Position numbers and translations under genes: made by a program. Under the pieces are notes generated by a model that did not search any database, had not been told where the DNA came from, and saw only the letters and a list, made by a program, of their open reading frames with translations. Shown piece after piece: positions 9,678-64,000 of a stretch of 64,000 nucleotides of DNA (position 1 is its first letter; every line of letters starts with the position of its first letter). Source of the stretch: Azolla caroliniana (Eukaryota > Plantae > Polypodiophyta); contig JBHGNT010000020.1 of assembly GCA_043228905.1 (NCBI GenBank), positions 8,742,001-8,806,000 of the forward strand, in the 5' to 3' direction.

Positions 9678-10397
9678 ACGTGTGCATTTTATGTGTTTAA
9701 GGTCAAGTTAGTCTCGGATTATTGTATTGTTCATACCTCTCCCCCATATGTACATGTCCCCATTTAACTGGTATTCCTTTGTATATGAAGAATGTGTAAA
9801 ATTTTGCCTAGAACCTAGGCTAACATATGATGACCTCATACCTAACATATGGGAACTAGTGAAGAATGGTATTAATCCCTTCATGAAGCTAGGAAAGCTA
9901 ATGATAATCTTAATTAAGATGTAATTAATAAAACACATGATCCTAGCCTCTTTCATAGAAAATGTGGCCGATCTAGCATAAGACTCCAATCTAACATTGG
10001 TAATGAACACATAAACATGAGCCTTTCTTGAATGATCAATGATGTGATAATCTAACAACCTAATCAAACGTTTTCATTCGATCAAAGATTCTCACCAAGG
10101 TGATGATAAAATGAGGTAGTTTGCATATTTATATCTTGAGTCAAAGACCCCTTGATCACCACTTACATGCTTACGTGTGACAAACCATGCTAGGTTGTCT
10201 GAGACTATAGGGTAGTTATCCTTCTTGATTTATATATTTATTTATGATAGACTATTCCCATTTGGACCTAAAGCTATGTCCGTAACAAATAATTATTGAA
10301 TTCATGCCATGAACTTTGAACCCAAGCTTGAACTTGCCCACAACTAAAAATTGTTTGGTTAGCATGTCTTAGATATTAAACAATGAATGTCATGGTT
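9678..10397. repeat. Direct duplicate of 23425-24144; contains the empty ACGT target site of the gypsy element
   Basis: Near-identical sequence; the same spurious ORFs occur at 9708-10067 and 23455-23814. Confidence 0.92.
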
Positions 10398-10749
10398 GTT
10401 CAACCACCGGATTGGACCAAAGACTTTCATGTCTTTATCGATGCGTCGGATATAACAATTGGGAGTGCATTAATGCAATTATTAGAAACCAATTTGTATT
10501 GATTGACGGGAACTGGTCGTTCCTTATGCCCAACGCTCGGCCACAACCGAGCTTAGAATGATACACAGAAAATGGGAAATAAAACGCGACACAAAGAAGA
10601 GACGAGGTACACAGGAGGTTTACGTGGAAAACCCCAAACTAGGGGAAAAAAAACCACGGCAGCCCACAGGCTACAAACTATCACTATGATGGAATGTACA
10701 ACCATGAGTTCACTGAGGCACCGACCTCGTGCTCACAAATCTTCGCCAC
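10394..10749. repeat. Duplicate of 25666-26019: gypsy RNase H remnant (VVQPPDW..FIDASD) plus a truncated copia LTR starting at 10504
   Basis: Direct sequence match. The LTR start TGACGGGAACT matches 25776 and 35294. Confidence 0.88.
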
Positions 10750-11244
10750 CAGATTGCGGTCAGATGCCGTCGGATCACCGGCTCCATCGCCGGTCTAGTT
10801 TTGGTTGGCCAATACCCTTTTCGAGTAGCTAGCCACCTCCACTCTAAGTTCAAGTTACCTTGAACTCTCTATGCTCCACACATAGACACAAAGATAATAT
10901 CTTTTGCTCCACCTTATATATGATGAGAGCCGTATTTGTCGTGCCTATGTGGGATATCTCACAATTTTCTCTTTTCTTTTCACAAACTTTATACCCTCAT
11001 ATCTTGACATTTAGTTGTCTATTTCTCGTGTAATAAAGTGCATTCGAAACCTCCATCATTTTGTGCTTAGATATTAAAAATGTTATCTTCACAATTACTG
11101 TATTACGTGATTCATACTCGATTTTGTACGTTTTATGGGATTTTCACACTATTGCCGAAAATCTTCACGACATCCACCCCCACCAAACCGCACGTCCTCC
11201 GGTACGTGCCAAGAAGAGAAGAAGTGAGATTTCGGCTACGATGA

Positions 11245-14200
11245 TCAATTAGATTCCTTCATGTCTTCATTTTCATCCGGCCTATTATGTTCATCGTCGA
11301 GGTAATCGAGATCAGGATCCTTGTCTTGTCTTTTCTTGAAAAGCTTTACTCTTTTCCCCGCAATGGGTACGGCCAACCTTGATCCGTCTAGTTCCGCAAG
11401 GTGGTATGTGGCATTATCGTTGGCACTTGTCACCACATATGGCCCAAACCATCTTCTTGCGAACTTCCTTGTTGTACTATGTTGATTGTCAAGGGTGCTA
11501 TCGTAAACTAAAACCCAATCCCCTTCTTCAATCTTCTTGGGACGAAGTCGATGCGTGTTGTCGAACCGAACTTTGTTCTTTACTCGGGCTGCCTTCATCA
11601 TCTTTCGTGCTTTTTCTAAATCTTCAGGTCTTCTTTCAAGTTGCCTTATCCGCGCCGCTAATAACTCTTCTCGGCTCATCTCGTTCCCCCACGGTATCGC
11701 TACCCATGAGGCGATCGTCCTTTCGATGGGCATAATCGGCTTTTGTCCATACATAAGCTCCGTCGGCATATACCCTATCACCGAGCTATGTGTCGTTCTA
11801 TCGGCCCACAAGGCATAGGGTAATAGTCGTGGCCAATTCCCAACTCGACCGTTGCATGCCCGTACGATGGCTTTAACGATAGGTCCATGCCCTCGCTCGA
11901 TCTTCCCATTTGCTTCCGGATTGTAGGCAGTCGTGAGGGAGAGCTTCACGCCTAGTCTTTCGAAGAGCTCCGTCGCTTCGTGCGCGTCCAACTCCCCTCG
12001 GTCGGCCACTATCTTCCCTACACATCCATATCGGCAAACAACATCTTCAAGTAGAAATTTGCAAACGGCTGAAGTCGTCTTATTTGTCAAGGCTCGTCCT
12101 TCCACTTGATTTGTCAAGTCTTCCCTTGCCAACGCTAAGTACTTCATTTGTCCCACTCCCATTGGCATCGAGACCAGATCCACCATCCATTTGAAGTGTA
12201 TGGTGAGTGGGTATGTCGGCTTTAACTCATCACGATGACGTATATTTGAATATACTTGGCAAGTTTCGCATGTGGACACGAAATGGAGTACATCTTTGTA
12301 CATGCTTGGCCACCAGTACTTCTCCTTCAACTTTTCGAACGTCGCCCATGTTCCTCTATGACCTGCCCAAGCACTCTCGTGGAATTCGGTCATTAGCGTC
12401 TCTTGCTCTTCTTTCTTTACCACCACTCGACGTGGTATTCCTGTCCTTCTTTTTGGATGTCGCCAAAGGAATCCTCCCTTCAAGAAGTATCGGTAAGCTT
12501 TCTTTCGGATTCGTAGGGCCTCCTCCTTTGTCAACGAAGCATCGGTCGTCAATGTTCTTAGGAATCTACCGATGAGTAACCACTCTCCTTCGTATTCGTT
12601 CTCGTTGAAGGCGTGGAGGGTTTGCGTGTCCTGGTCTTCCGCCGACAATCGAGCCATCTTGAAGAAGTCGAGGGCAACATCTTCATCTTCCGAAACCATG
12701 TTACTTCCATTTGAAAATCTTGCCCTCGACAGCATGTCAGCCATGGCGTTCTTCTTCCCTGCGATGTGACGAATCTCTGGGTTTAAAGACTTGATGTAGG
12801 CGATCCACCTTAGCATAGCAAGATCTGGGGTCGCACATCCCGAGACCATTCCGAGAATTGGGAGACAATCTGTCTCTATTATCACTTCTGACCCGATCAG
12901 GTAATCTTTGTCCGTCTTCACTGCCGACACAATACCCCAAAGTTCCCGCTTGACTTGGGCATATCTTTGTTGCCGTTCGCTGAGAACCTTTGCTCCGAAC
13001 CGGACGGCATATCGCGCATTATCTTCACCTTCTTGATTGATGACCCACCCGATTCCGGTTGGGCTCGTATCTACGGTCACGTAAATTGGTTTCCCTTCGG
13101 CATAGTCGGCCTTCCTTAGTGCCGGAGCTTCAAGAAGCAGTTTCTTTAATCTTTGCATCGCCTCTGTGTGCTCGTCTCGCCATTCAAACTTTATTCTTTT
13201 CTTTAGTAGTCCATATAACGGTCCGGCGACATGAGCGTAGTGAGGAATCCATATATGGTAAAACGCGCATGCTCCAAGGAACCTTCGAACCTCCGTTTGG
13301 TTTTCGCATTCTTCTTTCATGTCTTGGATTGCGTTCACTTTGGATGGCGAGGGCTTCCGGCCGTATGCTCCACACAAGTGACCTACCACCAAGATCTCCG
13401 GTTGCCCGAATGCGGATTTTTCTCCCGAAAATGTCAAATTCGCATCTTCGAGCCTTTGAAGCACCTTCTCGCAATCTTTCATATGATCCGCAACGAACTT
13501 TCTACAACCTTCCTTATCTTTCGATTCATCTTTCTCCTCATCCGAACATCCTTTTATTGGAATATCATCCAAGAATGGCATCGTGATGTCCGGAATGCAA
13601 TCCTTCAAGACTTTATTCATGGCATTCACCATATGAGCCACCGAGTTCGTTGCGCCTTGGGGTAAGGTACACATCCGCACAAGCCCGATCGGAGTCCTCA
13701 TGGTTGTAATGTCCCGACTGTCGATTGCCAATTGGAATTGGTCATATCCGGAGTAGAGATCGCCAATGGAGTAGATGGACCGGCCCGCAAACGCTTCGGC
13801 AAATTCGTCCACGCTCGGACCGATTCCGGCATTTCGAATTGTCACCTTGTTGACGGGTTGAAGATCTTGGATGAATCGCAATGATCCATTCTTCTTCGGC
13901 ACCGTGAACCACCTATTGGAATAAGGAGCATTCGACGGTTCTAGAATTCCCATACTCACCTTCTCCTTTAAGAGCTCGATCAGCTTCGGAAGGTGTGCTC
14001 TCGGAACCGGTATCGGTTTCAAGTTCCAAGGCACATGAGGCACCGTGAAGATCACCATTGGCTCTATAACCTTTGGGTCGGCGCATCCGATTTCTCGTGG
14101 GAAGAATGCGAAAGCCTTCCCATGTCTCTCAAGCATATCACGAAACATTCGCTCCTCTTCAGGGAGAAGGAAATCCTCCTTTCCAACTCGTAGCTTCCCC

Positions 14201-14735
14201 TTCGTCTCTTTGGTGAAGTCATGACCTATCTTCTTCGGATCTCTTAAGCTTGGATCGTTAGCGACTTCATCTTTTGCCAACTATCTTCCGGTAGCGGAAC
14301 CGCAACTGGCTTGATCTTCTTATCCACTATTTTATATTTCGTGTTGATGTCAGCTTCATTCATCGAGATGCCACGACGGTATTCATCGATGATAGCGTAC
14401 ATGTTGACGGAGTTAACCGAAATCACACGTTGGTTGTGAAGATAGCTCAAGTCCACGACGTCCTCGATTTCGCCGATGGTGTCGTTAAATGAGGCTTCTT
14501 CCATAATATGAGTCACGAACTCTCCTTCTTCTATTATGTTCTCTTCTTTCAGCATCTTCTCGAATTCTTGTATCCGGCTCTTGTGCTTCTTGTCGGGTAG
14601 TACTAGTTTACATGCGCCACTAGGTGTGACACATGTTGCTTCTCCTTGCAATCCACGCGCTCTTCTTTCTTGTGGGGTCTTGTGATTGCTCGGACTATTT
14701 GTGCCCCATGCTTCAATAGTCCGCTCTAAAAATCC
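11245..14735 (-). pseudogene. Gypsy ORF2 pol (RT-RNase H-integrase); 4-bp deletion frameshift near 14268
   Basis: DLYSGYDQ, LPQGATNS, FLDD, VDTS, ETDC, HHCC, DRGE..NGKIERGH and GPY motifs. The duplicate at 60244-61236 lacks the frameshift. Confidence 0.93.
14673..14735 (-). promoter_or_regulatory. Predicted -1 programmed frameshift signal (G GAT TTT plus stem-loop or pseudoknot); copy at 61258-61320
   Basis: Heptamer directly before the ORF1 stop, -1 frame continuous with pol, 9-bp stem CGGACTATT/AATAGTCCG, and loop TGGGG complementary to downstream CCCCA. Confidence 0.75.
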
Positions 14736-16930
14736 GAGGATTCGCCTCCGAGACTATCTCGATTCCTTTCATGATTGGCTCGCACTGTTAGGAATTGGAC
14801 CGATCTTTGGTTGTCAAGACTCTTTATTCGTGCGAAGGCTGCTCCATTATCGAACACTTTGGTCTCCATCCGAGATGATGTGATATAAGGTTGCCCTAGG
14901 ATGACAAGATGCGATGTCGATTCTTGTACGAAGAAGTGTTGATCCATCTCCACATCCCCGATCGTGACTTTGACATTGGGACAAGCTCCGTACAAGTCCT
15001 CCGTAGACTTTGTTGCCGCGCGAATCTTCCATCTGTGGTTTGTATTAATTGGCCATCTTCCCTTTTTGTAGAAGTCGGTTGACATGAGGTTGATCTCCGA
15101 GCCGTGGTCGATCAAGGCTACGACGGTCTCTTTCTTCTCCCCGATCTTCACCGGCGTCTCCGTTGTCGCTCGTGCCCAATGAGGTCGAGTGTAGTGGCTG
15201 TCCACCATATCTTCATCGATTTCGTCTCTTGCCATCGTTATGGCATTCGTTTTTGCTTTCTGCGGCTTCTCTTCTTCCTCGTCCGATTGTTGTCTCTTTC
15301 TCTTTACAAGGTCCACGATCGTGTCATGGAACTCCTTCTTCGTAATGCCAAGCAATTCCCTCAAGGACAAAGTTACATGGCTATCAAGAACTCGTTCTTC
15401 GAGAATCTTCTTTAGGTCCGTCGTCTGCTCTATGTCCGACCTTAGCTTATAGGTAGGTATGGTCCTTGTCCTCCGAGCGGGGTCTTCGACACCAACCTTC
15501 ACGGGCTGAACCGTTTCTTCAACTCGTATGCTTGGCTCCCCTTTTCGGCTTGATTCTCGTTCCTCCGTTTGTAAAGGTCGACTCGTCTCCACATCGTCCT
15601 TCTTTTTCGCGTTCCTTGTTTCATGTCTTTTTGATGGCCCTTGCTCTTCTATTCTCTTTCTCTTTTCTTCAACGAACACCTCGTGGTTGTCGCACATCAC
15701 CTCTGCGAGTATGGTGTTGTCGTCCATCAGATCCGACCACCCGGTTATGCATTGCACGTTTCGGTCCGCAAGCTCTACCTCGTTCGATGTGACTTTTCCC
15801 TTCTTCTCATATTCGAGAATGGAAGTCCAAAACTTTGCTCCCGCTCTAGCAGCTTCAGTCTTGTCTTTCCCGACTCTTATTCCGGCCGACGCAGCATAGT
15901 GCATCGCATCCACATGAGTCGCATCGGCATCCTCCATAGATTTCTTCATTCCTCCTCTTCCGAAATTCACCCGTAGGGGTCTTCTAGTCTCGCTTGAGCA
16001 GATCATGTTGTCCTCTATGTATACGATATTTTGTCGAATCGCCTCTCGAAGGCTCGCACAATCCCTTCTCATGTGGTCCATGCTATCGCACCACACGCAT
16101 CTAAAGGGTTCTTTTCCTTTAGGGCCCCGACGATTCATGTTGGCTAGCGTGACCTTCTCGAACTTCTTCGCTAGCTCTTCAATGATGTCGTCATCAATCT
16201 TCTTTTCTTCCACGTTACTTTGTCTCGGCGGCTCAGCTACTTTCGGCGGTCTTGCTTTCTCCGTGGTAGTCGGTCCCGTCAAGTCGGTGTCATCAACCCA
16301 TTGGCGACGCTTGTCGAGCCTATTGCATGCCCGCTTCACCGCGATCCAGTCCGCTACGAGCCCATTTGCTTGGGTATCATCTTCGAGAAGAGTCCCCAAC
16401 TCCCGTCTATCCTTTATGTCCACGGCCTTCAAGAAGTACAAAGTCTTGTCCTCTTCAAGCAATACTTGGTCCGTATTGGGGAGACGACTAAACATTTGGT
16501 CGAATTCGTCGTACACCCTCGAGACGCTCATCTTCTTATTCTTCTTCTCTATCCACTTCATCAGGGCATGTCAAGTCATCCTCGTTGAGTCTTCAGTCAC
16601 GAACTCCGCTAGTATCGTCTTCTCGAATTCGGACCATGTTGTCTTTCCTTCTTGAAGCTCGATGACGCGTCTTTGGATGTTGTTGGCGACAACTCTCTTG
16701 AAGCTTGCGATTTGACGTGCCTCGGACACGTCCCTTTGATTCATCTCCCTCTTATATGCATCAAGGAACTTCGTAATGTTCCTTCCATCGAATTGGCCCT
16801 CGAGCTCTATGACACGATCGACAGCCTTCTCCACGCTCGCGTCGTTGTCCCGAGATCTCATCATTTGCTCGACGATTAGCATCATCCTTTCAAGCTCTCC
16901 TGCTTGGTTGCTTGAGGACGCCATCTCCAA
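14726..16930 (-). pseudogene. Gypsy ORF1 gag-protease with one in-frame TGA at 16571-16573
   Basis: CCHC knuckle CVWCDSMDHMRRDC and protease motifs ALIDHGSEIN and ILGQPY; ends SSDF*. Confidence 0.88.
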
Positions 16931-16965: not shown

Positions 16966-16983
16966 TTCACGTCGGGTTCACCA
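16966..16983 (-). promoter_or_regulatory. Primer binding site complementary to tRNA-Trp; copy at about 63551-63568
   Basis: Plus-strand TTCACGTCGGGTTCACCA equals the 3' 18 nt (including CCA) of plant cytosolic tRNA-Trp as recalled. Confidence 0.8.
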
Positions 16984-17370
16984 CTTTATTATGTCGTGAA
17001 GATCCGTCACTACGCGCGGATCGTGAGGCGGAACCGCCGGGGTTCTGGACCAGAAGGATTTAGAGTCGATACAAGCTTTGGCGAGAAAGCACTTAAGATA
17101 GATTGGGAAAGAGAGAAGATGAGATTACACAATTGATTTGATAATGAATTTCTTGTTCTTAATTTTCATAAAAAAAACCGTGTTTTTCTCCTCCCCCTTC
17201 CCTCTTTTATAGATGCTCTCATGCATATAATGCATGTGAGGGTACAAGACATGCATAAATTGCATGTTTGCCATTTGGCGCTTAAGTATTACATGTGGTG
17301 CATGCTAACCATGTCACTCATTTTAGTTCGCATGGATGAGAATTTACATGTAAAAGTACAATGATAGAAA

Positions 17371-20300
17371 TGTTGGGAATCAACGCTTCGATTCACCTTC
17401 ACCACTCGGCCACAACCGAGTAATCGCGAATCAATGCAGCAGAAAATAGGAACCACAGAGAGAAACACACGTATACACAGGGATTAACGTGGAAAACCCT
17501 AGATGGGAAAAACCACGGGAGTACGAGACTCCAAACCAACACTATACAAAGAGAAGTACACAATGGCGAGCTGCAAGGCGACGACCTTGAGCTCGCTGTC
17601 CTCGCCACAGGCGGCGGAAATACACAGAGGCGTAGTCCTCTTCCTCTCTCACGCTCTATCTCTCTCTCTCTCTCTCTCTCTCACGGCTGCTCCCTCTTCA
17701 CTCCTCTTGAGTGGAAAAACAGAAAAATGATTAGCAACAATAAAACTATTTGCCCTAAGTCATATTTATACATATATGACTTTGGGGCTATTTACAACTA
17801 TAGCCTCAGGGGGCCCTTAGCGGACATATTCACGGATATGTCCCTGCATCCGGATCTCTCTCCGGGTACATTCGTCATCCGGCACCGAAGCCGGGGTCTT
17901 CAACATCCGGATCCGAAACCGAAACCGGGCTCGTCGGCATTCATCTCCGACATCCGACCATCCCATCCGAAGGGATCGTAATCCCAACAAACTCCCCCTT
18001 CACTTCGGCATGGGATGTCTTTCCAAACCGATCCTCTTCCGGCATGCTTCCAGCTTGTCGGGTGTGAGGACCTTGGTCAGCATATCCGACCCGTTCTCAT
18101 CCGTGTGGATCTTTGTCAGCACGAACTCCTTGTCTTCTATCCTTTCCCGGATCCAGTGATATCTTCGCTGGATGTGCTTCGTCCGGGAGTGATAGGCCGC
18201 GTTCTTCGCAAGGTGGATTGCACTCTGACTGTCACAGTAGAGTCGGTACTCCTCCTGCCGGATACCGAGCTCTCTAATGAAGTCCTTCATCCATATTACT
18301 TCCTTGCCGGCTTCAACAACCGCCATGTACTCCGCCTCCGTAGTTGACAACGCAACCGTCTTCTGCAGCCTCGACTGCTATGAAACAGCTCCCCCTGCAT
18401 ACGTCATCACATACCCTGATGTGGACCGGCTGGTATCTGCATCAGCCGACATATCCGAATCGGTAAAGCCGTCGAGTTCGGGCTTACCGGAGCCGAATCG
18501 GAGGCACACGTTTGCCGTGCCCTTCAGGTATCGGAGTATCCACTTGGCCGCGTTCCAATGCTCTTTGCCGGGATTGCTCATGTACCGGCTCACCACTCCG
18601 ACTGCATATCCGATGTCCGGTCTCGTACACACCATGGCGTACATCAAGCTCCCGACGGCTGAGGCATATGGCACTTTCATCATATCCTCCTTTTCAGCCT
18701 TTGTCTTGGGACTTTGCTTGTTGGACAGCTTGCAGTTTGCCGGGAGGGTCGATCCGACCGGTCTTGCTTCCGACATGTTGAACCGGTGAAGCACCTTCGT
18801 CACGTACTTCTCCTGTGACAGCCACAACTGCTTCTTCTTCCGGTCCCGGATGATGTGCATCCCTAGTATTTGCCTCGCCGGACCCAAGTCCTTCATTGAG
18901 AAGGTTCGGTGAAGAGCCTTCTTCAGCATCCGTATCTTGACCTGGTCCCGTCCGACGATCAACATGTCGTCCACGTACAGGAGGAGTATTAGGAAGTCTC
19001 CTCCTTCGAACTTCTTCACAAACACGCAGTGGTCGGACTGCGTTTTGAGGTACCCTTCGTCGGTCATGAAGGAGTCGAATTTCCGGTACCATTGCCGGGG
19101 AGCCTGCTTCAGTCCGTAAAGGCTCTTCTTCAACCGGCATACCAGGTGCTCCTTCCCTTTCTTCTCGAATCCTTCCGGTTGCTGCATGTAGATCTCTTCA
19201 TCGAGGTCACCGTGAAGGAATGCCGTCTTCACGTCCATCTGTTCTACCTCGAGGTCCATGCTTGCCGCTATGCTCAGCACCGTCCGGATGGAGGTCATCT
19301 TCACTACCGGGGCAAATATCTCGTCGAAGTCGACGCCCTTCTTCTGCTGAAACCCCTTCACCACGATCCCGGCTTTGTATCTCGGGGGGTTTCCGGCATC
19401 TCCCGGTTTCAGCTTGAACACCCACTTGTTTCGAAGTGCCCGCTTTCCTTTCGGCAACTCCACAAGTTCATATGTGTGGTTCTCATGCAGGGAATCCATC
19501 TCGTCCTGCATGGCACTCAACCACCTGCGGCTCTGGGTGTCGTGCTTTGCTTCTTCAAAGCTCTCCGGCTCCCCCTCGTCGGTTAGCAGCACGTGCTCTG
19601 GATCCGGAAATCTCCGGGGGGCCCTCCTCTCTCTTAGAGGATATCTCCGTTCGGGAGCTTCGGTAATCGGTTCTTCCGATTCTTCTTCTTCATCCGAATC
19701 CATTTCGGGATCGGGGCCGGTTCCGGTATCATTTTCATCTTCTTCGGCCGGTTCTGTTTCTTCACCGTCTTCGGCCGGATCCTCGAGTGCTAACCGGTCC
19801 CTTGCCGGTCGGGACTGCTCCTCATAAAGTTGATCCTCACCGGTTGACTTGGAGCTCTTCATCTTCTTCTCCGACTCCCAGTCGGCGAGTGTCTTGTTCT
19901 CCATGAAGATGATATCACGACTCCGGAATATCTTCTTGTCGACCGGGTCCCATACTCGGTAGCCGAACTCGTCGTCGCCGTAACCGAGGAATATGCATGG
20001 CCGGGTCTTTGGATCTAGCTTTCCTCTCCGGTCCTTTGCCACATGCACGTATGCGAGACACTCGAACACCTTCAGATGCCGGTAGGATACTTCCCTACCG
20101 GTCCACACTCTCTGCGGCGTGTCTCCGTCCAAAGGTACTGACGGTGATCTGTTTATCACATATGTCGCCGTCGACATTGCCTCAGCCCAAAATCCCTTGG
20201 GTAATTTCGCATGCGCCAGCATACTCCGAACCCTCTCCATTATGGTCCGGTTCATCCTCTCGGCCAGCCCGTTCAGTTCCGGCGTCTTCGGCACAGTAAA

Positions 20301-22389
20301 CTCGAGTCGGATTCCCTTCGAGCGACAGTACTCCTGGAACTGTCCCCGGTATTCCCCTCCGTTATCCGCTCGTATCGCTTTCAGCTTCTTGCCGGATTCT
20401 CTTTCCACTCTCGCGTGGAGTTCTTTGAAGACGGACAACACTTGGTCCTTTGTCTTCATCGGTGCCGTCCACAGTCTTCGGCTATGATCATCTATGAAAG
20501 TTACGAAGTACTGGGCTCCGCCATGTGACTTCGTTTCTACCTGACACACATCGGTGTGCACCAACTCCAATGGTGCGCTACGTCTCGTCGGTGGCCTTGA
20601 GTGGAAGGAGGTTCGGTTCTGCTTACCGGCCAGGCAATCGGTGCACTTCTCCAGGTGCACATGCTTCACTGGAATAAGGTTGTCTTCTGCAAGCCTCTTC
20701 ATCCCCTTCTCACTCATGTGACACAGTCTTTTGTGCCACAGCTCACCGGCAGTGTCGGCTGCCACATTCAGCTCTTCCGGACATAACCGGGCATTCATCA
20801 GGTACAGTGTGTTGATCTTCCGGGCCCGAGCCACTATCAGGCTCCCCTTGCTGAACTTCATTACGCCGTTCCGGATGCTACCTGTGTAGCCTTCATCGTC
20901 TAGCCTCCCGGCCGAAATCAGGTTCAATCGAACCTCCGGAACGTGTCAGACATCCTTCAGCAGCATTTTGCATCCGGTCGGGGTTGTCAACCACACGTCT
21001 CCTATGCCGGCAATCCGGCACGTACCTTCATTTCCCATCCGAACACAGCCATGCTCACCGGCTGTGTAGGATGAGAAGTATCTTCTCTCCGGGGTCAGGT
21101 GGAACGATGCTCCGGAATCGACCACCCAGGTCGTCTCATCGCCGGCAACGTTTAGTTCACCTTCTTCGGTGATGAGCATGATTTCTTCCTCACTTGCCGC
21201 GAGTGCCGTTGTTCCTTTCCGGTCCTGCCCTCGCCGATCCGAACCTCTCCGGTCCGTGGCTCCCCGGTATGCACCGTTTCTCTCCGGTGACTTCTTCGAA
21301 TCGGTGTCGTCGGCTCCGTTGTCTTTTCGGTAATGCCGACAATTCTTTCGGAAGTGCCCCGGTTTCCCACAGTGGAAGCATGTGGGCCTTCCTCTTGACT
21401 GCGACCGGGTCCCCGACTTCTCCCGTCTTTGCGGACTCCGGTTCCATTGTCTTCCCCGATCCGATTCGGTAAGCAGCGCCTTCGGGTCGGAGGCCGGTTC
21501 TTTATCTCTCCGACGCGCTTCTTCGTTCAAAATACTTGTCTTTACCGTTTGCAAGGACAAGTTATCTTCTGTGCAGGAGGTGCTGAGAGTCACCACCAAG
21601 TTCTCCCAGCTTTCCGGCAATGTACACATCAGGATGATGGCTTGCATTGCATCCTCCAACGGGAACTTGATCGCCGCAAGCTGATTCACGAATCCCATGA
21701 ACGTGCTTACGTGTTCCACCATACTCTCGCCGTCCCGGTACTTGAGATTCACTATCTTCCTCATCAGGGAGGTTCGGTTCAACGCATTCTTCCTCTCATA
21801 GAGGCCCGACAGCTTCCGCCACATCTCATATGCGTTGGTGTCGTTCGCCACATGTTGTAGAACGCTCACGTCGACGTATTGCCGAATGGTTGCAACGGCT
21901 TTCCGGTTCAGAAGCCTCCATTCCGACTCAAGTACCCCTTTCGGTATTTCCGACCTGTCAATCGGTTCGTACAGGTCCCGAACAATCAGAAGATCCTCCA
22001 TCTTGATCTTCCAGTCGGCGTAATTCTGCGCAGTCAGCACCATCATCCCCGGCTGCCCGCTGCCGCCGCCTTCCATTTTCTGCAGCAACCCGCTCTGATA
22101 CCAGTTTGTTGGGAATCAACGCTTCGATTCACCTTCACCACTCGGCCACAACCGAGTAATCGCGAATCAATGCAGCAGAAAATAGGAACCACAGAGAGAA
22201 ACACACGTATACACAGGGATTAACGTGGAAAACCCTAGATGGGAAAAACCACGGGAGTACGAGACTCCAAACCAACACTATACAAAGAGAAGTACACAAT
22301 GGCGAGTTGCAAGGCGACGACCTTGAGCTCGCTGTCCTCGCCACAGGCGGCGGAAATACACAGAGGCGTAGTCCTCTTCCTCTCTCACG

Positions 22390-22420
<31 letters not shown>

Positions 22421-22727
22421 ACGGCTGCTCCCTCTTCACTCCTCTTGAGTGGAAAAACAGAAAAATGATTAGCAACAATAAAACTATTTGCCCTAAGTCA
22501 TATTTATACATATATGACTTTGGGGCTATTTACAACTATAGCCTCAGGGGGCCCTTAGCGGACATATTCACGGATATGTCCCTGCATCCGGATCTCTCTC
22601 CGGGTACATTCGTCATCCGGCACCGAAGCCGGGGTCTTCAACATCCGGATCCGAAACCGAAACCGGGCTCGTCGGCATTCATCTCCGACATCCGACCATC
22701 CCATCCGAAGGGATCGTAATCCCAACA
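17371..22727 (-). mobile_element. Full-length Tnt1/Tork-like copia nested in the gypsy 5' LTR; LTRs 17371-17989 and 22107-22727; TSD AGAAA
   Basis: TG..CA LTRs differing by about 1 substitution and one CT unit, tRNA-iMet PBS 22091-22103, PPT 17990-17999, empty site visible at 63951-63955. Confidence 0.96.
18000..22076 (-). pseudogene. Copia gag-pol polyprotein with two in-frame stops (20946, 18378)
   Basis: CCHC, DSGAS protease, GAG-pre-integrase, DDE integrase, YVDD RT and RNase H in copia order. Confidence 0.93.
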
Positions 22728-22750
22728 AGAAATATAATTTCAACTAAATA

Positions 22751-22818
22751 TCATGGCTTAATTGTAAGCCATTTGACTCCTAACTTGGAGGTGCAAGGTT
22801 CGAATCTATACTTGCCCT
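22751..22818 (+). ncRNA. tRNA-like (A-box/B-box) module within the gypsy LTR; also 33123-33191 (minus) and partial at 63973-64000
   Basis: TGGCTTAAT(T/G)G A box with paired GGCTT/AAGCC D-stem, TGACTCC, GGTTCGAATC B box and a downstream T-rich tract. Acceptor and anticodon stems do not pair well, so this is not a functional tRNA. Confidence 0.6.
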
Positions 22819-22863
22819 CTTTGTATATGTAAATATGTATATATTTTTATATATTTTTATATA

Positions 22864-23030
22864 TGCCGACGCCGACGCCGGATGCCGTCGTCGGATGCCG
22901 ACGCCGGATGCCGTCGTCGGATGCCGACGCCGGATGCCGTCGTCGGATGCCGACGCCGGATACCGGTGCCGACGTCGGATACCGGTGCCGCATGCTGCCG
23001 CCAGATTGCCGTCGGATGCCGTCGGATCAT
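22864..23030. repeat. GC-rich tandem repeat (13/26-bp unit GCCGACGCCGGATGCCGTCGTCGGAT) in the gypsy LTR
   Basis: Visible tandem array; a different arrangement occurs in the solo LTR at about 32930-33075. Confidence 0.85.
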
Positions 23031-24687
23031 CGGCTCCATCGCCGGTCCAGTTTTGGTTGGCCAAAACCCTTTTCGAGTAGCTAGCCACCTCCACTCTAAG
23101 TTCAAGTTACCTTGAACTCTCTATGCTCCACATATAGACACAAAGATAATATCTTTTGCTCCACCTTATATATGATGAGAGCCGTATTTGTCGTGCCTAT
23201 GTGGGATATCTCACAATTTTCTCTTTTCTTTTCACAAACTTTATACTCTCATATCTTGACATTTAGTTGTCTATTTCTCGTGTAATAAAGTGCATTCGAA
23301 ACCTCCATCATTTTGTACTTAGATATTAAAAATGTTATCTTCACAATTACTGTATTACGTGATTCATACTCGATTTTGTACGTTTTATGGGATTTTCACA
23401 CCATTGCCGAAAATCTTCACGACAACGTGTGCATTTTATGTGTTTAAGGTCAAGTTAGTCTAGGATTATTGTATTGTTTATACCTCTCCCCCATATGTAC
23501 ATGTCCCCATTTAACTGGTATTCCTTTGTATATGAAGAATGTGTAAAATTTTGCCTAGAACCTAGGCTAACATATGATGACCTCATACCTAACATATGGG
23601 AACTAGTGAAGAATGGTATTAATCCCTTCATGAAGCTAGGAAAGCTAATGATAATCTTAATTAAGATGTAATTAATAAAACACATGATCCTAGCCTCTTT
23701 CATAGAAAATGTGGCCGATCTAGCATAAGACTCCAATCTAACATTGGTAATGAACACATAAACATGAGCCTTTCTTGAATGATCAATGATGTGATAATCT
23801 AACAACCTAATCAAACGTTTTCATTCGATCAAAGATTCTCACCAAGGTGATGATAAAATGAGGTAGTTTGCATATTTATATCTTGAGTCAAAGACCCCTT
23901 GATCACCACTTACATGCTTACGTGTGGCAAACCATGCTAGGTTGTTTGAGACTATAGGGTAGTTATCCTTCTTGATTTATATATTTATTTATGATAGACT
24001 ATTCCCATTTGGACCTAAAGCTATGTCCGTAACAAATAATTATTGAATTCATGCCATGAACTTTGAACCCAAGCTTGAACTTGCCCACAACTAAAAATTG
24101 TTTGGTTAGCATGTCTTAGATATTAAACAATGAATGTCATGGTTTTCCAACAAAAGTTTAAGAAATAGCAAAATTAATTACATTAAGTCAATGTTCTCCT
24201 TATAATATTCCTGGTGCATGTGGGACACAATGACCTCATTATTGACCCCATGTTCTTATATTGAAGGTTCCACTAAATAAGCTTTCTTCTTTGAGAATAA
24301 AAAATACTTTTTTCTTTGTGCAAGTACAATCCTAGACACGTCAATGTTAAAGGTTTTTAATTTCTATAAACATTTGAAGTGCTTTAAGAATTACATGAAA
24401 AGAAGGATATCATCATTTGGAGTAGGTAATGTACTATCAATATGTTAAAATGCGTGTGTTTGTATATTAAAAATCTTATAGAAACATTTATGTTAAAATG
24501 TGTGTGTATACTTTGGAAATATTCTATAAACATTTGAAGTACTTGAACAATAGAAGAAACATATATTATCATCAACAATCATGCATGATGTACCATAGAT
24601 ATGTTCTAGGAAAACACTCGAAAAGTAGGGAATCAACTTTATTGGACCCATTAATCCACTTTCCAATCACAAGTTACAAGTTACGAC

Positions 24688-25322
24688 CATAGATTGACAT
24701 GTACGTGATATTCGTGGTATATGCCATGCGTGATATTCGCGAATACAAAATGTCCCCAAGAATATTATAAAACCATTAGTTTTTCAAAATAAATTTACAT
24801 AATAAAAAATATTTAATTCACTAAAAAATTAATTAATATACTAATAATTAATTAATTAATTATGCTCACTAATAATTAATTAATTCACTATTAGAATGGT
24901 ATTCCTTATAAACCAGTATGCTATTCCGTGAAGTATCCTCAACAAATTAGGAGGAATTAATTCACTAACAATTAAATAATTAGGGTTTCTACAAAACCCT
25001 GAGTTTGTAGGCTGAGAAGAGGAAATATGGTTGCAATTAGGGTTTTGACTAAAATTTCGGGTTTTCAATTGAAACCCTAATTTTCAGACCAAGAACAAGA
25101 TACAAGGGAGGTGAGGATGTAGGAGTCATGTAGGATGGAGGGGGAGGCGTGGATGAGGCATCACGCACACGATGCAGGGGGAGGCGAGGATGTAGTGTAA
25201 AAAAAATGCTTTTGTTTTAAAAAAAAAAACAAAAAAACAAAAACTTTTAGAAGCATTCGTATGCGTATTTGTACTATGCATTTGTGGGTCCTTCCCCATG
25301 AATGCGAATATGTCAATCTATG
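24688..25322. mobile_element. Non-autonomous TIR element (hAT-like MITE)
   Basis: 13-bp perfect terminal inverted repeat CATAGATTGACAT, subterminal ATTCG motifs and an AT-rich interior. No clean TSD seen. Confidence 0.5.
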
Positions 25323-25775
25323 ATCACAAACAAATACCACTACATCAAATGGGTGAACGCAAAAAATGTGCTTTATGTAAGGGCACCCTCTCTCTTCATT
25401 AACTTAGTAAAACAAACACTCTCTCACTAGAGCTATAGAAGCTCATGAGTCATGGGGAATGTGGAAACTCATTAGTTATGTGTAATAGAATATGATTCTA
25501 TGACACATAATTAATGTGTAGAAAGTAGTGTTGACTTTTGACCTTTGAATGTTCATATATTCTCAAGACACCATTACATACAACGGTCCATTGAAATGGG
25601 TTTCAATGGACGACTACCGAGTAGGATGCTTATGATTCATTAAAACAAATGTTGTCTAAAGTAACGGTTGTTCAACCACCGGATTGGACCAAAGACTTTC
25701 ATGTCTTTATCGATGCGTCGGATATAACAATTGGGAGTGCATTAATGCAATTATTAGAAACCAATTTGTATTGAT

Positions 25776-30529: not shown

Positions 30530-33500
30530 ACGATTGCATATAATGGAAGCCCGAATTGGTTTGTTATAAATGTCAAGTCGATTGCCCAAGAGTTGTTTAG
30601 GGTCAACCGCTCACACATTTCCAATATCCATTGTTTAGTCCATTGTTTAGGGTCCACCGCTCACACACATCAAATAGGTCATCGTTGCAACAACTTATGA
30701 CATTGGGGTGTGCTGGCAAATGGTACACATCTTCGTCTTCATCATCTTCTTCAAAGAAAGCACCTTCTTTCAACCTCACAATGCATTATTTGGCTTTCAT
30801 TGATTAATCCTGAGTTGCAACATGCTTTGAGAATGCTTATAAATGTAACAATATTAAGGAAGATACCATTAGATTGCATCTTTTCAAAGCATTCAACTGC
30901 TTCTTCAGATTTTCCATATGTAACTTCTCACCCATTCTTCTCAACATAGAGCTACAATTCTCAAGCTTAGATCTTCTTTGACACATTTGATTCATCTCCT
31001 CTTCTTTCCTTTTTAAGGCCTCAATGCATCTAAGAAGAGAATTTCTGACCGCATTGAAGACGAGAATCTCCCAATTTCACAACTCTATCAAATATATTCC
31101 TTGCCTTTTCTAAGCTTTCACAAGTCGAATACAGGTTGACTAGTGCATTTCCAATTGTAACATCTGAGTCCAGACCATTTTTGAGAATTTGATCATAAAT
31201 GAGTTGTCCTTCTAAAGCTTCGATCATTGTGCATGATTTTAGAACAGATGAGAATATAAAGCTACTAGGTTTTACGTGCTTCTTTTGCATTTTCTCAAAT
31301 ACCAATAATGCCAAGAGTCCATAGCCATTCTGGCCATATCCAACAATGAGAGAACCCCACAAGACAACATCTTTCTTGGGTGAGATGTCAAATAATTTCT
31401 GAGCCTCTTGAATAGCTCCATGATTCGAATATAGTTACTCAAATGTTTATTTTCATTTTCTTTTGTCAAACAACAATCATGAAGAGTGAAACAACAAAGA
31501 TTCTGCATTTATATCTAATTTTAGGCGAATTTCTTCCTTTTTCCCATACAATAACATTCTGCACAAAAGAACAATAGTTTCCACATAGTTACTACTATAT
31601 TTCTCTCATATAAGAACGACGACTACTAGCATTAGACATACATAAGGATAAGTAGCAAAAGCACAAAGAACATTGTACAATAGCTACTAATGTTAGATGA
31701 ATTTATTCTCAGTTTCACTCATACAAAACAAAAGTATTTACTGCCAATCTCAAATGAATTTATTTCCAATTTTATTCTTATAACAAATCATCGTAATGAT
31801 TCTTACTACTAATTTCACATAAACCTCTTCCATTCCTTTCCCATACGAAACTAGTTACAATGAAATACTTACCTGTCCATCTCTTACTTATACACAAGAA
31901 CATCAAATACGTGTAATTCCAAATTTTACCAATCCAATACAAAAAGTGTAATTCCAAAAATATCCACAAAATCAAATATATCTATCGACTCAACAAAATA
32001 TCTAATAATGCACAATCATCACTAAATTGGGGCCCTACAACTGCGAGCATTGGGTCCTTTCCTACGACACCTTCAACAACGATGTTCTTTCTTCTTTGTG
32101 CCTTCTTCTATTGTGCGTATACGTTTGGTTTTTGGACGTCCCGGAGGTCTTCGTGTGGCTGGTGGTAACATGCCTGGAACAAAATTATCATGCGTAACAA
32201 CAACAGGAAATATTGGCTTCTTGTAAGTATCAAAATATGATTGCAACAAATATGCCTTGTGTGCAAAAGATTGAACTCTTTCCTTTCGAAACAAAATAGC
32301 GGCCGCTGCATGTGCACAAGGTAACCCCATCTCCTGCCATTGTCCACAAGTACATATCTTCTTATCCACCTAAACAATCCTAACATGTTTCGGAGTATGG
32401 ATCTCAAAAACATCATTAGTGGATGGCAAAATACGATATAGTCTTCCATCTTGTATGGATTCTCTAATAAATTTCTCTGCATATCCAACCAATGCATTAT
32501 GTGTTATCTCTCCATTAACCAATCCAGTACGTTGTCGTGAAGATTTTCGGCAATTGTGTGAAAATCCTATAAAACGTACGAAATCGAGTATGAATCACGT
32601 AGTACAATAACTGTGAAGATAACATTTTAAATAGATTTAATATCTAAGTACAAAATGATGGAGGTTTCGAATGCACTTTATTACACGAGAAACGAACAAC
32701 TAAATGTCAAGATATAAGGGTATAAAGTTTGTGAAAAGAAAAGAGAAAATTGTGAGATATCCCACATAGGCACGACAAATACGGCTCTCATCATATATAA
32801 GGTGGAGCAAAAGATATTATCTTTGTGTCTATGTGTGGAGCATAGAGAGTTCAAGGTAACTTGAACTAAGAGTGGAGGTGGCTAGCTACTCGTAAAGGGT
32901 TTTGGCCAACCCAAACCGGACCGGCGATGGAGTCGGTGATCCGACGGCAATCCGGCGTCGGTGATCCGACGACATTCGACCGCAATCCGGAGTCGGTATC
33001 CGGCGGTGGCACCGGTATCCGGTGTCGGCATCCGGCGACCGACGGCATCCGGCGGCGGCACCGGTATCCGGCGACTATATAAAATAAATATATAAATATA
33101 TATACATATTTACATATACAAGAAGGGCAAGTATGGATTCGAACATTGCACCTCTAGGTTAGGAGTCAAATGGCTTACCATTAAGCCATGGTATTTAGTT
33201 GAAATCATATTTCTATCATTGTACTTTTACATGTAAATTCTCATACATGAGAGCTAAAATGAGTGAGATGGTTAGCATGCACCACATGTAATACTTAAGC
33301 GCCAAATGGCAAACATACAATTTATGCATGTCTTGTACCCTCACATGCATCATATGCATGAGAGCATCTATAAAAGAGGGAAGGGTGAGGAGAAAAAACA
33401 CGGTTTTTTTTTATGAAAATTAAGAAGAAGAAATTCATTATCAAATCAATCGTGTAATCTCATCTTCTCTCTTTCCCAATCTATCTTAAGTACTTTCTCA

Positions 33501-35293
33501 CCAAAGCTTGTATCGACTCTAAATCCTTCTGGTCCAGAACCCCGGCGGTTCCGCCTCACGATCCGCGTGTAGTGACGGATCTTCACGACAACGTGCTTTA
33601 GAAGTTTCTCCATTAACCCTCCTTTCATAAAACCATGACATTATCTTCTTGCGTATCAATTCCATCATCCCTAGAATAGGCATAGCTCTAGCCTCTAACA
33701 ACCATGCATTTAGGGACTCGGCAATGTTAGATGTCAAGTGTCCAAACCTTTTCCCTCAAAACTTACATGTAGCCCAATGTGAGGGGTCGGCGATGCTCAT
33801 TAGCCATTCAGTTGCATTACTATTTAAAGTACGAATTTCTCCAATGATAACATCAAAGTCTTGAGTATTAGTTGCATCTACAGCTTTCCACAACATCCCC
33901 AATAGTTGAGTGCTTTTAAAAGCTTTTCTAAAATTGTCTCATAAATGGCGCATGCAATATCCATGTGATGAATCATTGCCGAACACCAACATGACACCAT
34001 CCACTAAACCCTTTTGTCTATCTGAAATAAACGTTAGTGGATCTTTGTGTCGAAGAACATCCTTCAAACTTTGAAGAAACCAACACCAATCATCATCATT
34101 CTCTACTATTACTACACCAAATGCAATCGGAAACAAAGCACCTTGTGCATCGATGGTAGTAGCCGTGAGAAGGATTCCTAGGTATTTTCCTTTCAAATGA
34201 GTTCCATCTAGACCAATTATTGGTCTACAATGCATGAAACCATTTATGCTTGCATTGTAAGCAATGAATATGCGAAGAAAGCGGCCTTCAATTGTTTCTT
34301 GAAAATGTGCCACACTACCAGGATTAGCTTCTAAAATGTTTTGGCAATAATTTCGAAGATTTTGATATGCAAATACATGTTCCCCATGGATTTGAGCATG
34401 TGCACTTTCTTTTGCTTTCCACGCTACCCTGTAAGAGATAGTGACGCCTTTTTCACGACGCACATCACCAATTAGTTCCTTTGGTGTGTATGTAGGATGA
34501 TCTTTAAACTTCTCCAATGTTGTTTCAGCCAATCATTTTGAGCTTACTTCTTTGTTCCCTAAGTGTTGAGTGCCACCACATTTATGTTCTTCACTACTCT
34601 TCTTGATTTGGCATTTTGGAATTCTGTCAATACAAGATGCATGCAACCTCCATCGCCATCCAGAATTTTTGCATGCAATTGTTAATCTAGCAAAAGTCAT
34701 GTGAGCACAAATTTAAGATTAAAAGTCAAGCGAATGTAAAAGCATATGAGTGCAAAATTCATGTGAACCTTGTTTTATCCGACTTGATCACTCTTAGCTC
34801 AACATGAGAGCCAATTGCATCATCTGTCACAGTTTGTCGAAGCTCCTTCAAAGAGTCAAATTGCCTTCCCTCCACCAAAGCCATTCTATGAGAGACATCA
34901 AACATCGAAATGAGAGCGAGATAGAGAGAAGAAGAAGAAGAAGAAAGCATTGGATCTATACAAAACGATGAGAAACGTTGATGTTTCTTCTTCACATCCA
35001 AATGAACATACTTTTGTTGCTTTACTCAAGGCTTGTATAAGGTTAAGAGACATGAGAACAAGTTTTCATGTACATGTAGAATGTGATTCGAGAGGTTTCC
35101 TACATAGTGATATCTCATTGGCTACCACTTTGGTTGATACATATGCAAAATGTGGCTCAATCGAGAGAGCTAGACAGGTTTTCGATAAATTACATGTTAG
35201 AGATACAATCTTTGAGTGCCACCACATTTATGTTCTTCCCTATTCTTCTGGATTTGGCATTTTGTACCTCCTTCAATACAAGATGCATGCAAC
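30530..35293 (-). mobile_element. Pack-MULE unit, copy B (interrupted by the gypsy solo LTR; continues at 44802-45134 and 50065-50434)
   Basis: Colinear with 22-3637 at high identity. Confidence 0.9.
32533..33590 (+). mobile_element. Solo LTR of the gypsy family with 4-bp TSD ACGT
   Basis: 12-bp terminal inverted repeats, ACGT at 32529-32532 and 33591-33594, and the empty site CCAGTACGTGCTT in MULE copies A and C. Confidence 0.95.
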
Positions 35294-63200: not shown

Positions 63201-64000
63201 CGTCTTCTCGAATTCGGACCATGTTGTCTTTCCTTCTTGAAGCTCGATGACGCGTCTTTGGATGTTGTTGGCGACAACTCTCTTGAAGCTTGCGATTTGA
63301 CGTGCCTCGGACACGTCCCTTTGATTCATCTCCCTCTTATATGCATCAAGGAACTTCGTAATGTTCCTTCCATCGAATTGGCCCTCGAGCTCTATGACAC
63401 GATCGACAGCCTTCTCCACGCTCGCGTCGTTGTCCCGAGATCTCATCATTTGCTCGACGATTAGCATCATCCTTTCGAGCTCTCCTGCTTGGTTGCTTGA
63501 GGACGCCATCTCCAAGTATTAATCTCAACTTGATCCTTCCTACCGCCTCTTTCACGTCGGGTTCACCACTTTATTATGTCGTGAAGATCTGTCACTACGC
63601 GCGGATCGTGAGGCGGAACCGCCGGGGTTCTGGACCAGAAGGATTTAGAGTCGATACAAGCTTTGGCGAGAAAGCACTTAAGATAGATTGGGAAAGAGAG
63701 AAGATGAGATTACACAATTGATTTGATAACGAATTTCTTGTTCTTAATTTTCATAAAAAAAACCGTGTTTTTCTCCTCCCCCTTCCCTCTTTTATAGATG
63801 CTCTCATGCATATGATGCATGTGAGGGTACAAGACATGCATAAATTGCATGTTTGTCATTTGGCGCTTAAGTATTACATGTGGTGCATGCTAACCATGTC
63901 ACTCATTTTAGTTCTCATGGATGAGAATTTACATGGAAAAGTACAATGATAGAAATATAATTTCAACTAAATATCATGGCTTAATTGTAAGCCATTTGAC
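60272..64000 (-). mobile_element. Partial second copy of the gypsy element (matches 13691-17370 plus 22733 onward); LTR begins near 63577
   Basis: Near-identical ORF1 and start of pol; lacks the nested copia. Confidence 0.93.

What the first reader, a model, noticed from the sequence alone, without database searches (positions are those of the whole stretch)
22751..22818. Gypsy LTR carries an antisense tRNA-Trp-like module, matching the element's own primer tRNA
Seen: every LTR copy covering this position (22751-22818, solo LTR 33123-33191, partial 63973-64000) has an A box (TGGCTTAATGG), an intact D-like stem (GGCTT/AAGCC), TGACTCC, a B box (GTTCGAATC) and a T-rich tail, antisense to the element. 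Recalled: its first 30 nt match plant tRNA-Trp at about 22/30, and the PBS of this element is tRNA-Trp. Two inferences are possible. It could be a Pol III promoter stably built into the LTR, analogous to the 5S module of Cassandra TRIMs, acting as an antisense transcript source or insulator. Alternatively the genomic RNA presents an anti-tRNA-Trp tract about 400 nt upstream of the PBS for extended primer capture, as with Ty1/Ty3 extended primer contacts.
Basis: partly seen in the sequence, partly recalled or inferred. Interest (0 to 1): 0.8.

Follow-up and report, generated by a model that had tools for sequence, protein, structure and literature searches.

The report
Retrotransposon LTRs keep tRNA-gene promoter boxes
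Many lineages of a protein-coding jumping-gene group, likely from a fern, keep the two promoter boxes of a worn-out tRNA gene about 165 bases from their own promoter, which likely recruits the host's tRNA transcription factor to shield or tune that promoter; the proposed link to the element's tryptophan primer tRNA did not hold.

Summary
The module is real. It lies in the predicted U3 of a Phygy-like Ty3/gypsy LTR (Trp-type primer site, 4-bp NCGN target duplication), antisense, 180 nt from the LTR's TATA box. It is no tRNA (ARAGORN, Rfam blank) and is not Trp-specific: its anticodon position reads CCT, and 18 related modules show 11 triplets, none CCA. The larger result lies in relatives. Among 27 assessable reverse-transcriptase groups, 12 carry a strong A/B-box module, 4 a weak one and 11 none. 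A generic scan found 20 box pairs at tRNA spacing in 69.5 kb of LTR-side DNA, against at most 2 in shuffles. Boxes, spacing and distance to the TATA (median 165 nt) are kept, while stems, anticodon arm and flanks have diverged. Best reading: a retained TFIIIC-binding site acting on the LTR promoter (barrier or nucleosome positioning); binding and function are untested. Extended primer capture is not supported. It resembles Helenus/Cassandra but sits in protein-coding elements, mostly antisense. The scan found Helenus-type elements in other genomes but not this arrangement.

The parts
22747..22817 (+). tRNA-like module of the flagged 5' LTR (tRNA positions 1-72 by box spacing), antisense to the Gypsy element
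   Evidence: held-out profile E 8e-9
22754..22764 (+). A box (one departure from consensus in this copy)
22797..22806 (+). B box, exact match to GGTTCRAATC
22844..22848 (+). first run of 4 or more T past the B box; possible Pol III stop, not enriched over chance across families
22871..22990 (+). CG-rich 13/26/19-nt tandem repeat in U3, beyond the module's T run
22734..23424 (-). 5' LTR, first part (U3 with the module)
17371..22728 (-). Copia element inserted into the 5' LTR (5-bp target duplication at 17366-17370 and 22729-22733); in this copy it separates the module from its TATA box
16992..17370 (-). 5' LTR, second part, with RY-type repeats and the TATA box at 17212-17204
16966..16983 (-). 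primer-binding site, Trp-type (isotype recalled; consistent with Phygy), 8 nt past the LTR end
14726..16570 (-). gag ORF (weak DUF4100 match)
11245..14280 (-). RT-RNase H-integrase ORF; no chromodomain match
11173..11184 (-). polypurine tract
10745..11172 (-). 3' LTR remnant, cut off before the module
32533..33590 (+). solo LTR (1058 bp) with 4-bp target duplication ACGT on both sides
33125..33195 (-). module in the solo LTR: A box 33188-33178, B box 33145-33136
33189..33367 (+). spacer between module and TATA box, with 4 RY-type (CATGCA/TGCATG) motifs
33368..33376 (+). predicted Pol II TATA box of the LTR, 180 nt from module position 8
63577..64000 (-). third LTR copy, cut by the window edge; A box on + at 63977-63987, primer site at 63551-63568

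Best explanation
The module is a tRNA-type A-box/B-box pair kept in the predicted U3 of many lineages of a Phygy-like Gypsy clade, about one nucleosome length from the LTR's TATA box, and it likely binds the host factor TFIIIC (with or without Pol III) so as to act as a chromatin barrier or nucleosome-positioning site for the element's own Pol II promoter. Shown: presence, spacing, position, mostly antisense orientation, conservation of the boxes, loss of the cloverleaf, and absence from many sister groups. Inferred: origin from a tRNA gene or tRNA-derived SINE captured in an ancestral LTR; U3 location, from the TATA box; copying into both LTRs at each retrotransposition. Untested: TFIIIC binding, transcription, and any effect on silencing. 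The flagged copy is cut off from its TATA box by a Copia insertion, so it is probably inactive in this role.
For: (1) A generic box scan at 43-44 nt spacing gave 20 hits (13 antisense, 7 sense) in 69,490 nt of LTR-side DNA from 55 loci. 100 dinucleotide shuffles gave a mean of 0.26 and a maximum of 2; 280,013 nt of coding DNA gave 1. No other spacing from 30 to 60 gave more than 2 LTR-side hits. (2) The invariant or near-invariant columns of 20 modules include the Pol III promoter positions T8, G10, A14, G18, G19, G53, T54, T55, C56, A58, C61 (tRNA numbering is mine). (3) There is no structure signal: 50.0% of cells pair against 49.9% in shuffles, and RNAalifold predicts 0 pairs. (4) Mean pairwise identity among 18 modules is 0.68 for the A box, 0.83 for the B box and 0.60 for positions 44-51, against 0.36 for the anticodon arm and 0.31-0.35 for flanks. 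In 8 hand-picked related pairs: 85 of 88 box positions, 31 of 32 at positions 44-47 (not used to select them), and 278 of 432 other positions. (5) The distance from position 8 to the TATA box is 147-197 nt in 12 of 13 measurable LTRs and 242 in one, median 165. (6) One group carries a dissimilar module in sense orientation at the same U3 place (L012 215 nt, L013 137 nt from the TATA), and L042, L075, L046 and L039 carry 2-4 modules. Orientation independence fits a barrier (PMC2040200 abstract). (7) Within this family, contigs of two DNA runs differ at 10 positions between the boxes, at none of 22787-22801, and in the B box only by G>A at its purine-tolerant position. (8) Barrier, insulator and nucleosome-phasing effects of TFIIIC sites are established in yeast (PMC4228148 passages).
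Against: 11 of 27 assessable RT groups lack the module and 4 have only a weak one, including groups at 90-95% RT identity to the window element (L001-L005), so it is dispensable. Decayed copies exist (L014, L041, L021). The box-identity figures are partly circular, because seeds were chosen by box pattern. The loci are collapsed repeat contigs, 71 of 80 with one kind of record name, so they are not independent lineages and may be chimeric. There are no binding, chromatin or trustworthy RNA data. [quoted passage not shown] A-box variation within the family could not be read, because cover falls there.
Confidence: 0.45

Rival explanations
1. The module is a working Pol III gene inside U3 whose short (about 75-120 nt) antisense RNA, or the act of transcribing it, is what selection keeps, as with the Pol III small-RNA units in foamy-virus LTRs.
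For: Both boxes and their tRNA-like spacing are kept. 13 of 20 scan hits are antisense. A run of 4 or more T follows within 200 nt in 21 of 22 modules. Foamy-virus LTRs encode Pol III RNAs with A and B boxes (PMC3993851 passages).
Against: No shared fold or sequence in the transcribed body. T runs are not enriched (9 of 18 against 8.5 expected). Sense-oriented modules occupy the same place in one group.
Confidence: 0.2
2. The module is a relic of one or more SINE or tRNA insertions into ancestral LTRs, carried along with a successful promoter block or kept for binding some other factor, with no Pol III machinery involved.
For: Patchy distribution and decayed copies. Two sense modules downstream of the TATA have candidate 11-12-nt target duplications (L042, L046; 2 of 17 tested). 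A few contigs match the module core with other 5' flanks (loose ends). Kojima notes that not a few Repbase LTRs contain part of a tRNA.
Against: Neutral carriage does not explain boxes and exact spacing surviving while the bases between and around them approach random identity. No target duplication in 0 of 12 antisense modules. No strong hit outside LTR-side DNA in the window or in 453 kb of loci, counting L009 and L065 as LTR-side from their position after pol. The share of contigs running on into unlike sequence was 0 in two runs.
Confidence: 0.2
3. The module is a landing pad: Pol III factors bound there steer integration of retroelements into or beside existing copies, as Ty1 and Ty3 are steered to tRNA genes.
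For: The Copia in the flagged LTR sits 14 nt upstream of module position +1, near where a Pol III start would lie. Ty targeting is a known effect of Pol III complexes.
Against: It is one event, noticed after the fact, and by a different superfamily. This clade's own target sites are NCGN-type, with no tRNA-like sequence seen beside them in the window.
Confidence: 0.1
4. The element's RNA presents an anti-tRNA-Trp tract that gives extended primer contacts.
For: The primer site is Trp-type, and the module has the same polarity as a primer site.
Against: Anticodon CCT; 11 different triplets in 18 modules, none CCA; 5 of 15 identity to the primer's 3' end. The primer site is unchanged in groups lacking the module or carrying it in sense orientation. 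The predicted U3 location puts it only at the 3' end of the RNA. Kojima found no such role for Helenus.
Confidence: 0.03

Closest known systems
Helenus (tRNA-bearing TRIM, 'TRIMp3'; Kojima 2024, PMC10886601; main text parts 1-5 of 6 and supplement passages read)
   Same: A tRNA-like stretch inside LTRs, conservation centred on the A and B boxes, no functional tRNA, and no link to the primer tRNA; SINE insertion proposed as origin.
   Different: Helenus elements are non-coding, 311-1263 bp, and the module is proposed as their own promoter; it is in sense orientation in Helenus-1_SMo, the one plant family. Here the elements encode gag-pol, the LTR is about 1.06 kb with its own TATA box, and the module is mostly antisense and upstream of that TATA. 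Kojima argues that autonomous partners must use Pol II and are unlikely to share such LTR sequence.
Cassandra (5S-bearing plant TRIM; as described in PMC10886601, original paper not read)
   Same: A Pol III promoter built into a plant LTR and kept over long times.
   Different: 5S-type promoter, non-autonomous, and the Pol III unit makes the element's own RNA.
Phygy clade of non-chromovirus Ty3/gypsy (Neumann et al. 2019, PMC6317226; passages and supplementary file 5 read)
   Same: 4-bp NCGN target duplication, Trp-type primer site, no chromodomain, short internal region; the nearest named RT relatives are liverwort and fern proteins.
   Different: Described there as specific to Physcomitrella and 7.7-10 kb long; this element is about 7.9 kb by coordinates in a likely fern. 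No A/B-box module is mentioned in the parts read; files 1 and 3 could not be opened.
tDNA and extra-TFIIIC (ETC) boundary elements of yeasts (PMC4228148 passages, PMC2040200 abstract)
   Same: A/B- or B-box sites that act without a useful RNA product; orientation-independent barrier; effects on a neighbouring Pol II promoter.
   Different: These are host loci, not transposon cargo, and are shown in fungi; a 2026 review says the function is not described in plants (PMC13578239).
Pol III small-RNA units in foamy-virus LTRs (PMC3993851 passages)
   Same: A and B boxes inside the LTR of an autonomous retroelement.
   Different: They make defined hairpin miRNA precursors; here there is no conserved fold and the module has tRNA spacing.

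Membership tests
Helenus / TRIMp3 | tRNA-like sequence with conserved A and B boxes in the LTR | tested here: met
Helenus / TRIMp3 | Short non-autonomous element without coding capacity | tested here: not met
   gag and RT-RH-IN ORFs, LTR about 1.06 kb
Helenus / TRIMp3 | Module oriented and placed to transcribe the element itself | tested here: not met
   Antisense and upstream of the TATA box in this family; 13 of 20 scan hits antisense
Functional tRNA gene (Trp or other) | Cloverleaf with paired stems, recognised by tRNA models | tested here: not met
   ARAGORN 0 in the window and 0 in 80 of 80 loci; Rfam blank for the window and 9 loci; no covariation
tRNA-Trp derivative | CCA anticodon and likeness to the primer's 3' end | tested here: not met
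   CCT here, 0 of 18 CCA; 5 of 15 identity
tRNA-Trp derivative | Closer to host tRNA-Trp than to other host tRNAs over the 5' half | not testable with these tools
   No genome and no plant tRNA set obtained
Dispersed tRNA-derived SINE | Copies outside LTRs with own target duplications and tail | tested here: inconclusive
   None in the window or loci; unlike-flank share 0 in two runs but a few loose ends; candidate duplications for 2 of 5 sense and 0 of 12 antisense modules; no genome-wide search possible
Phygy clade | 4-bp NCGN target duplication | tested here: met
   ACGT on both sides of the solo LTR and beside the 5' LTR
Phygy clade | tRNA-Trp primer site | tested here: inconclusive
   The site is complementary to a CCA-ended small RNA common in plants; the Trp label is recalled and comes from no call
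Phygy clade | No chromodomain or extra RNase H | tested here: met
   Pfam scan and pol C-terminus
Phygy clade | RT groups with REXdb Phygy references | not testable with these tools
   Reference sequences not available (supplement too large)
TFIIIC-bound boundary (tDNA/ETC-like) | TFIIIC occupancy and B-box-dependent barrier or insulator activity | not testable with these tools
   No chromatin data held

The most novel reading that the evidence does not exclude
A clade of autonomous plant Gypsy retrotransposons has captured tRNA-type promoter modules at least twice and keeps them beside its Pol II promoter, sometimes bracketing it on both sides, as portable TFIIIC-dependent chromatin barriers against host silencing. 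These elements would then scatter TFIIIC sites through the genome and give a direct test of whether Pol III factors act as boundaries in plants.
Probability: 0.3. Interest if true: 0.82.

Novelty: new variant of a known kind. Interest (0 to 1): 0.62.

Why it matters
Pol III modules in LTRs were described for tiny non-coding elements (Cassandra, Helenus), where they are thought to make the element's RNA. Here the boxes are kept in protein-coding elements, facing away from the element, where that explanation cannot apply. If TFIIIC binds, this is a candidate anti-silencing or promoter-tuning device carried by a plant retrotransposon. [quoted passage not shown] It may also account for part of the large excess of tRNA-like sequences reported for a fern genome (over 10,000 in Azolla filiculoides). 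That link is only a lead: the window's host is not established, and ARAGORN does not call these modules.

Tried and rejected
No whole genome is held, so no genome-wide LTR alignment, host tRNA comparison or SINE search was possible. Attempts to fetch a plant tRNA-Trp gene found nothing: viral contigs 0, prokaryote genome contigs 0, two papers' supplements 0 (in the first, 3 files were image-only and 1 was not fetched). Phage blastn with the module gave only E 2-8 hits, 5 of 10 on tRNA-Asn: uninformative for isotype. Viral-contig searches for relatives were blank; genome contigs gave 3 loci, which I did not analyse for modules. No RNA holder was listed. One run guessed to be RNA has a 360-nt contig across the module, but it may be DNA, so it is not used as evidence. 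Read depth falls next to the module at an AT repeat; not interpreted. Cloverleaf covariation, terminator enrichment and target duplications around antisense modules were tested and not found. Leave-out profiles recovered the antisense modules of all 6 left-out sets that have them (E 4e-10 to 5e-3), but not the sense modules (L011, L042+, L075+, L046+ missed; L013 E 0.15), so sense and antisense modules are not shown to share an origin. The careful tree did not finish; only the quick tree was used, with no clade or ancestral-state test. A look for a self-carried B box in TRE5-A returned nothing usable. Rfam microRNA hits on the CG-rich repeat are below threshold.

Full report
Setting. The window is a stack of plant transposons. 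The best named relatives of its GH3 ORF are fern proteins (Adiantum 62-63%, Ceratopteris 55%), so the host is likely a fern; no genome is held. The flagged element is a Ty3/gypsy on the minus strand. Its 5' LTR is 23424-22734 plus 17370-16992, split by a Copia at 17371-22728. Then follow the primer site 16983-16966, gag 16570-14726, RT-RNase H-integrase 14280-11245, a polypurine tract and a truncated 3' LTR 11172-10745. A solo LTR at 32533-33590 has the 4-bp duplication ACGT on both sides. A 4-bp NCGN duplication, a Trp-type primer site and no chromodomain are the traits listed for the Phygy clade (PMC6317226, supplementary file 5). The Trp label of the primer site is recalled, and tree membership in Phygy was not testable.

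Observation. The A/B-box pair is present at the stated places, with tRNA spacing, antisense to the element. Two of three copies have an A box with one departure from consensus. The 'D stem' is an 8-bp hairpin one base out of register. The anticodon position reads CCT. ARAGORN and Rfam do not call it a tRNA. The LTR's TATA box lies 180 nt from module position 8, towards the LTR's 3' end, so the module is in U3 by inference; no start site was mapped. In the flagged copy the Copia insertion separates module and TATA by 5.4 kb.

Relatives. A search of metagenome contigs with a 27-protein alignment confirmed 256 relatives, of which the best 80 were returned. 71 of the 80 share one kind of record name, so they probably come from a few related hosts, and they are collapsed repeat contigs. 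A generic box scan, not trained on these loci, found 20 pairs at 43-44 nt spacing in 69,490 nt of LTR-side DNA (75 segments, 55 loci): 13 antisense and 7 sense. 100 dinucleotide shuffles gave a mean of 0.26 and a maximum of 2; 280,013 nt of coding DNA gave 1. No other spacing from 30 to 60 gave more than 2 LTR-side hits. A profile from 17 modules of loci only found both complete window copies (E 8e-9, 1e-8) and none in the window's other LTR families; 20 local shuffles never exceeded 7.5 bits. Grouping the 71 loci with a usable RT segment at 95% identity gave 48 groups: 12 with a strong module (20 bits or more), 4 weak, 11 without, and 21 with too little LTR to judge (9 loci had no usable RT segment and were left out). 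Loci with strong modules have RT 71-89% identical to the window's. In a quick tree (careful search unfinished), module-bearing rows fall in most deep branches of a 63-row clade, with gaps between. The three assessable loci outside that clade (L048 and L079 by the script's rule, L058 by inspection) lack it. LTR and RT histories disagree: L003 shares the window's LTR end but not the module, and L036 has it in one LTR only. This could be recombination or chimeric assembly.

What is conserved. In 20 aligned modules the fixed columns include the Pol III promoter positions, plus G-T at positions 46-47. The cloverleaf shows no signal: 50.0% of cells pair against 49.9% shuffled, and the consensus fold has 0 pairs. 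Mean pairwise identity among 18 modules is 0.68 (A box), 0.83 (B box), 0.60 (positions 44-51), 0.36 (anticodon arm) and 0.31-0.35 (flanks). The box figures are partly circular because seeds were picked by box pattern. The spacing peak, the held-out recovery and positions 44-47 (31 of 32 identical in 8 related pairs, against 278 of 432 elsewhere, pairs not independent) are not circular. Position is kept too. From position 8 of the nearest antisense module to the TATA box is 147-197 nt in 12 of 13 measurable LTRs and 242 in one, median 165. 17 were examined and 4 had no TATA in reach; the TATA was chosen by eye among pattern hits. That interval holds 51 RY-type motifs in 2,261 nt, against 0 in matching stretches beyond the TATA. 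L042, L075, L046 and L039 carry 2-4 modules. L042 and L075 add a sense module 129 nt past the TATA, so the promoter is bracketed, and the L011-L016 group has a dissimilar sense module upstream of the TATA. Leave-out profiles recover antisense but not sense modules, which suggests more than one capture.

Within the family. Three DNA runs laid 3,653-5,144 contigs each on the solo LTR; a fourth laid 1. The family is therefore abundant, though depth is no copy number. On the module, two runs (185 and 357 contigs) differ at 10 positions between the boxes, at none of 22787-22801, and in the B box only by G>A at the purine-tolerant position. Differences were listed only for 22769-22802, so the A box and the last B-box bases were not assessed. 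The share of contigs running on into unlike sequence was 0 in both runs, which argues against an abundant, closely similar dispersed SINE; a few loose ends leave a rarer or older one open. A run of another organism gave 42 contigs, 41 under 90% alike.

The Trp link. 18 modules show 11 triplets at the anticodon position, none CCA. The window module matches the primer's 3' end, read from its own primer site, at 5 of 15 positions. The same primer site is found in groups with antisense, sense or no module. The recalled 22/30 match could not be tested and includes the universal A box. Extended primer capture is therefore very unlikely; Kojima reached the same conclusion for Helenus.

Mechanism. Boxes, spacing and distance to the Pol II promoter are kept, while fold, anticodon and terminator are not, and orientation can flip. 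That pattern points to a DNA-bound factor rather than an RNA product. A and B boxes recruit TFIIIC (PMC13437025 passage). In yeasts such sites phase nucleosomes, act as barriers and insulators, and can also repress neighbouring Pol II promoters (PMC4228148 passages); the fission-yeast barrier is orientation-independent (PMC2040200 abstract). I put 0.45 on a TFIIIC site that shields or tunes the LTR promoter; the direction of the effect is not determined. The rivals are a functional antisense Pol III RNA (0.2), a relic or a site for another factor (0.2), a landing pad for integration (0.1) and primer capture (0.03). The main weakness is that 11 of 27 groups do without the module and nothing was measured in cells.

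Novelty. Ten full-text searches returned Helenus/Ajax/Cassandra as the closest prior art. In titles, abstract openings and the passages read, I saw no report of a conserved A/B-box module in autonomous plant LTRs. The library lacks most subscription journals and Repbase. Kojima states that not a few Repbase LTRs contain part of a tRNA but analysed only elements under 1 kb, so tRNA fragments in long LTRs are not unseen. Two large supplements of PMC6317226 could not be opened and may hold Phygy LTRs that bear on this. Other papers seen: PMC13578239 (section 6, passages), bioRxiv 2021.12.21.473619, PMC5846777, PMC3993851 and PMC5391098 (passages), PMC11700998 and PMC7544208 (supplement searches, no hits). 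The scan's earlier notes list Helenus-type TRIMs in other genomes and nothing like this sequence or arrangement. Interest 0.62.

Noticed in passing
window 17366-17370 / 22729-22733: The Copia insertion site lies 14 nt upstream of module position +1, about where a Pol III start would be; one event only.
   Followed up: partly
window 33189-33367; L015, L036, L041, L042, L075, L009 and others: Dense RY-type (CATGCA/TGCATG) motifs between module and TATA: 51 in 2,261 nt across 13 LTRs, 0 beyond the TATA. RY motifs are bound by B3-domain factors (recalled), which suggests developmental control of the clade.
   Followed up: partly
window 63551-63568 and 16966-16983: The complement of the primer site equals the sequence that plant small-RNA papers list as 'miR894' (17 papers hold the string; table in PMC5846777); it is likely a tRNA 3' fragment able to pair with this clade's primer site.
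   Followed up: partly
L042:6511-7059, L075:3147-3739: Two or three antisense modules upstream and one sense module 129 nt downstream bracket the TATA box; the sense modules of L042 and L046 have candidate 11-12-nt target duplications.
   Followed up: partly
window 22871-22990 and 32950-33075: CG-rich 13/19/26-nt tandem repeats in U3, variable in length between copies. The clade inserts at NCGN sites, so these may be self-insertion or methylation targets.
   Followed up: no
window 5288-6877: A GH3-family reading frame of 529 codons without a stop, among transposons; part of the region (6269-9133) recurs at 57374-60234 at 99.8% identity.
   Followed up: no
window 9678-11172 and 22997-26021: The 3' LTR remnant and its outer flank repeat the 5' LTR start and its outer flank (98-99%), pointing to a local duplication or rearrangement rather than a simple two-LTR insertion.
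   Followed up: no
L040:7044-7201, L036:13326-13399: A sister LTR type without the module in the covered part carries a 9-nt tandem array of TATA-like units.
   Followed up: no
L081, L082: Two prokaryote genome contigs encode relatives of this plant RT at about 60% identity, probably contaminating plant DNA.
   Followed up: no
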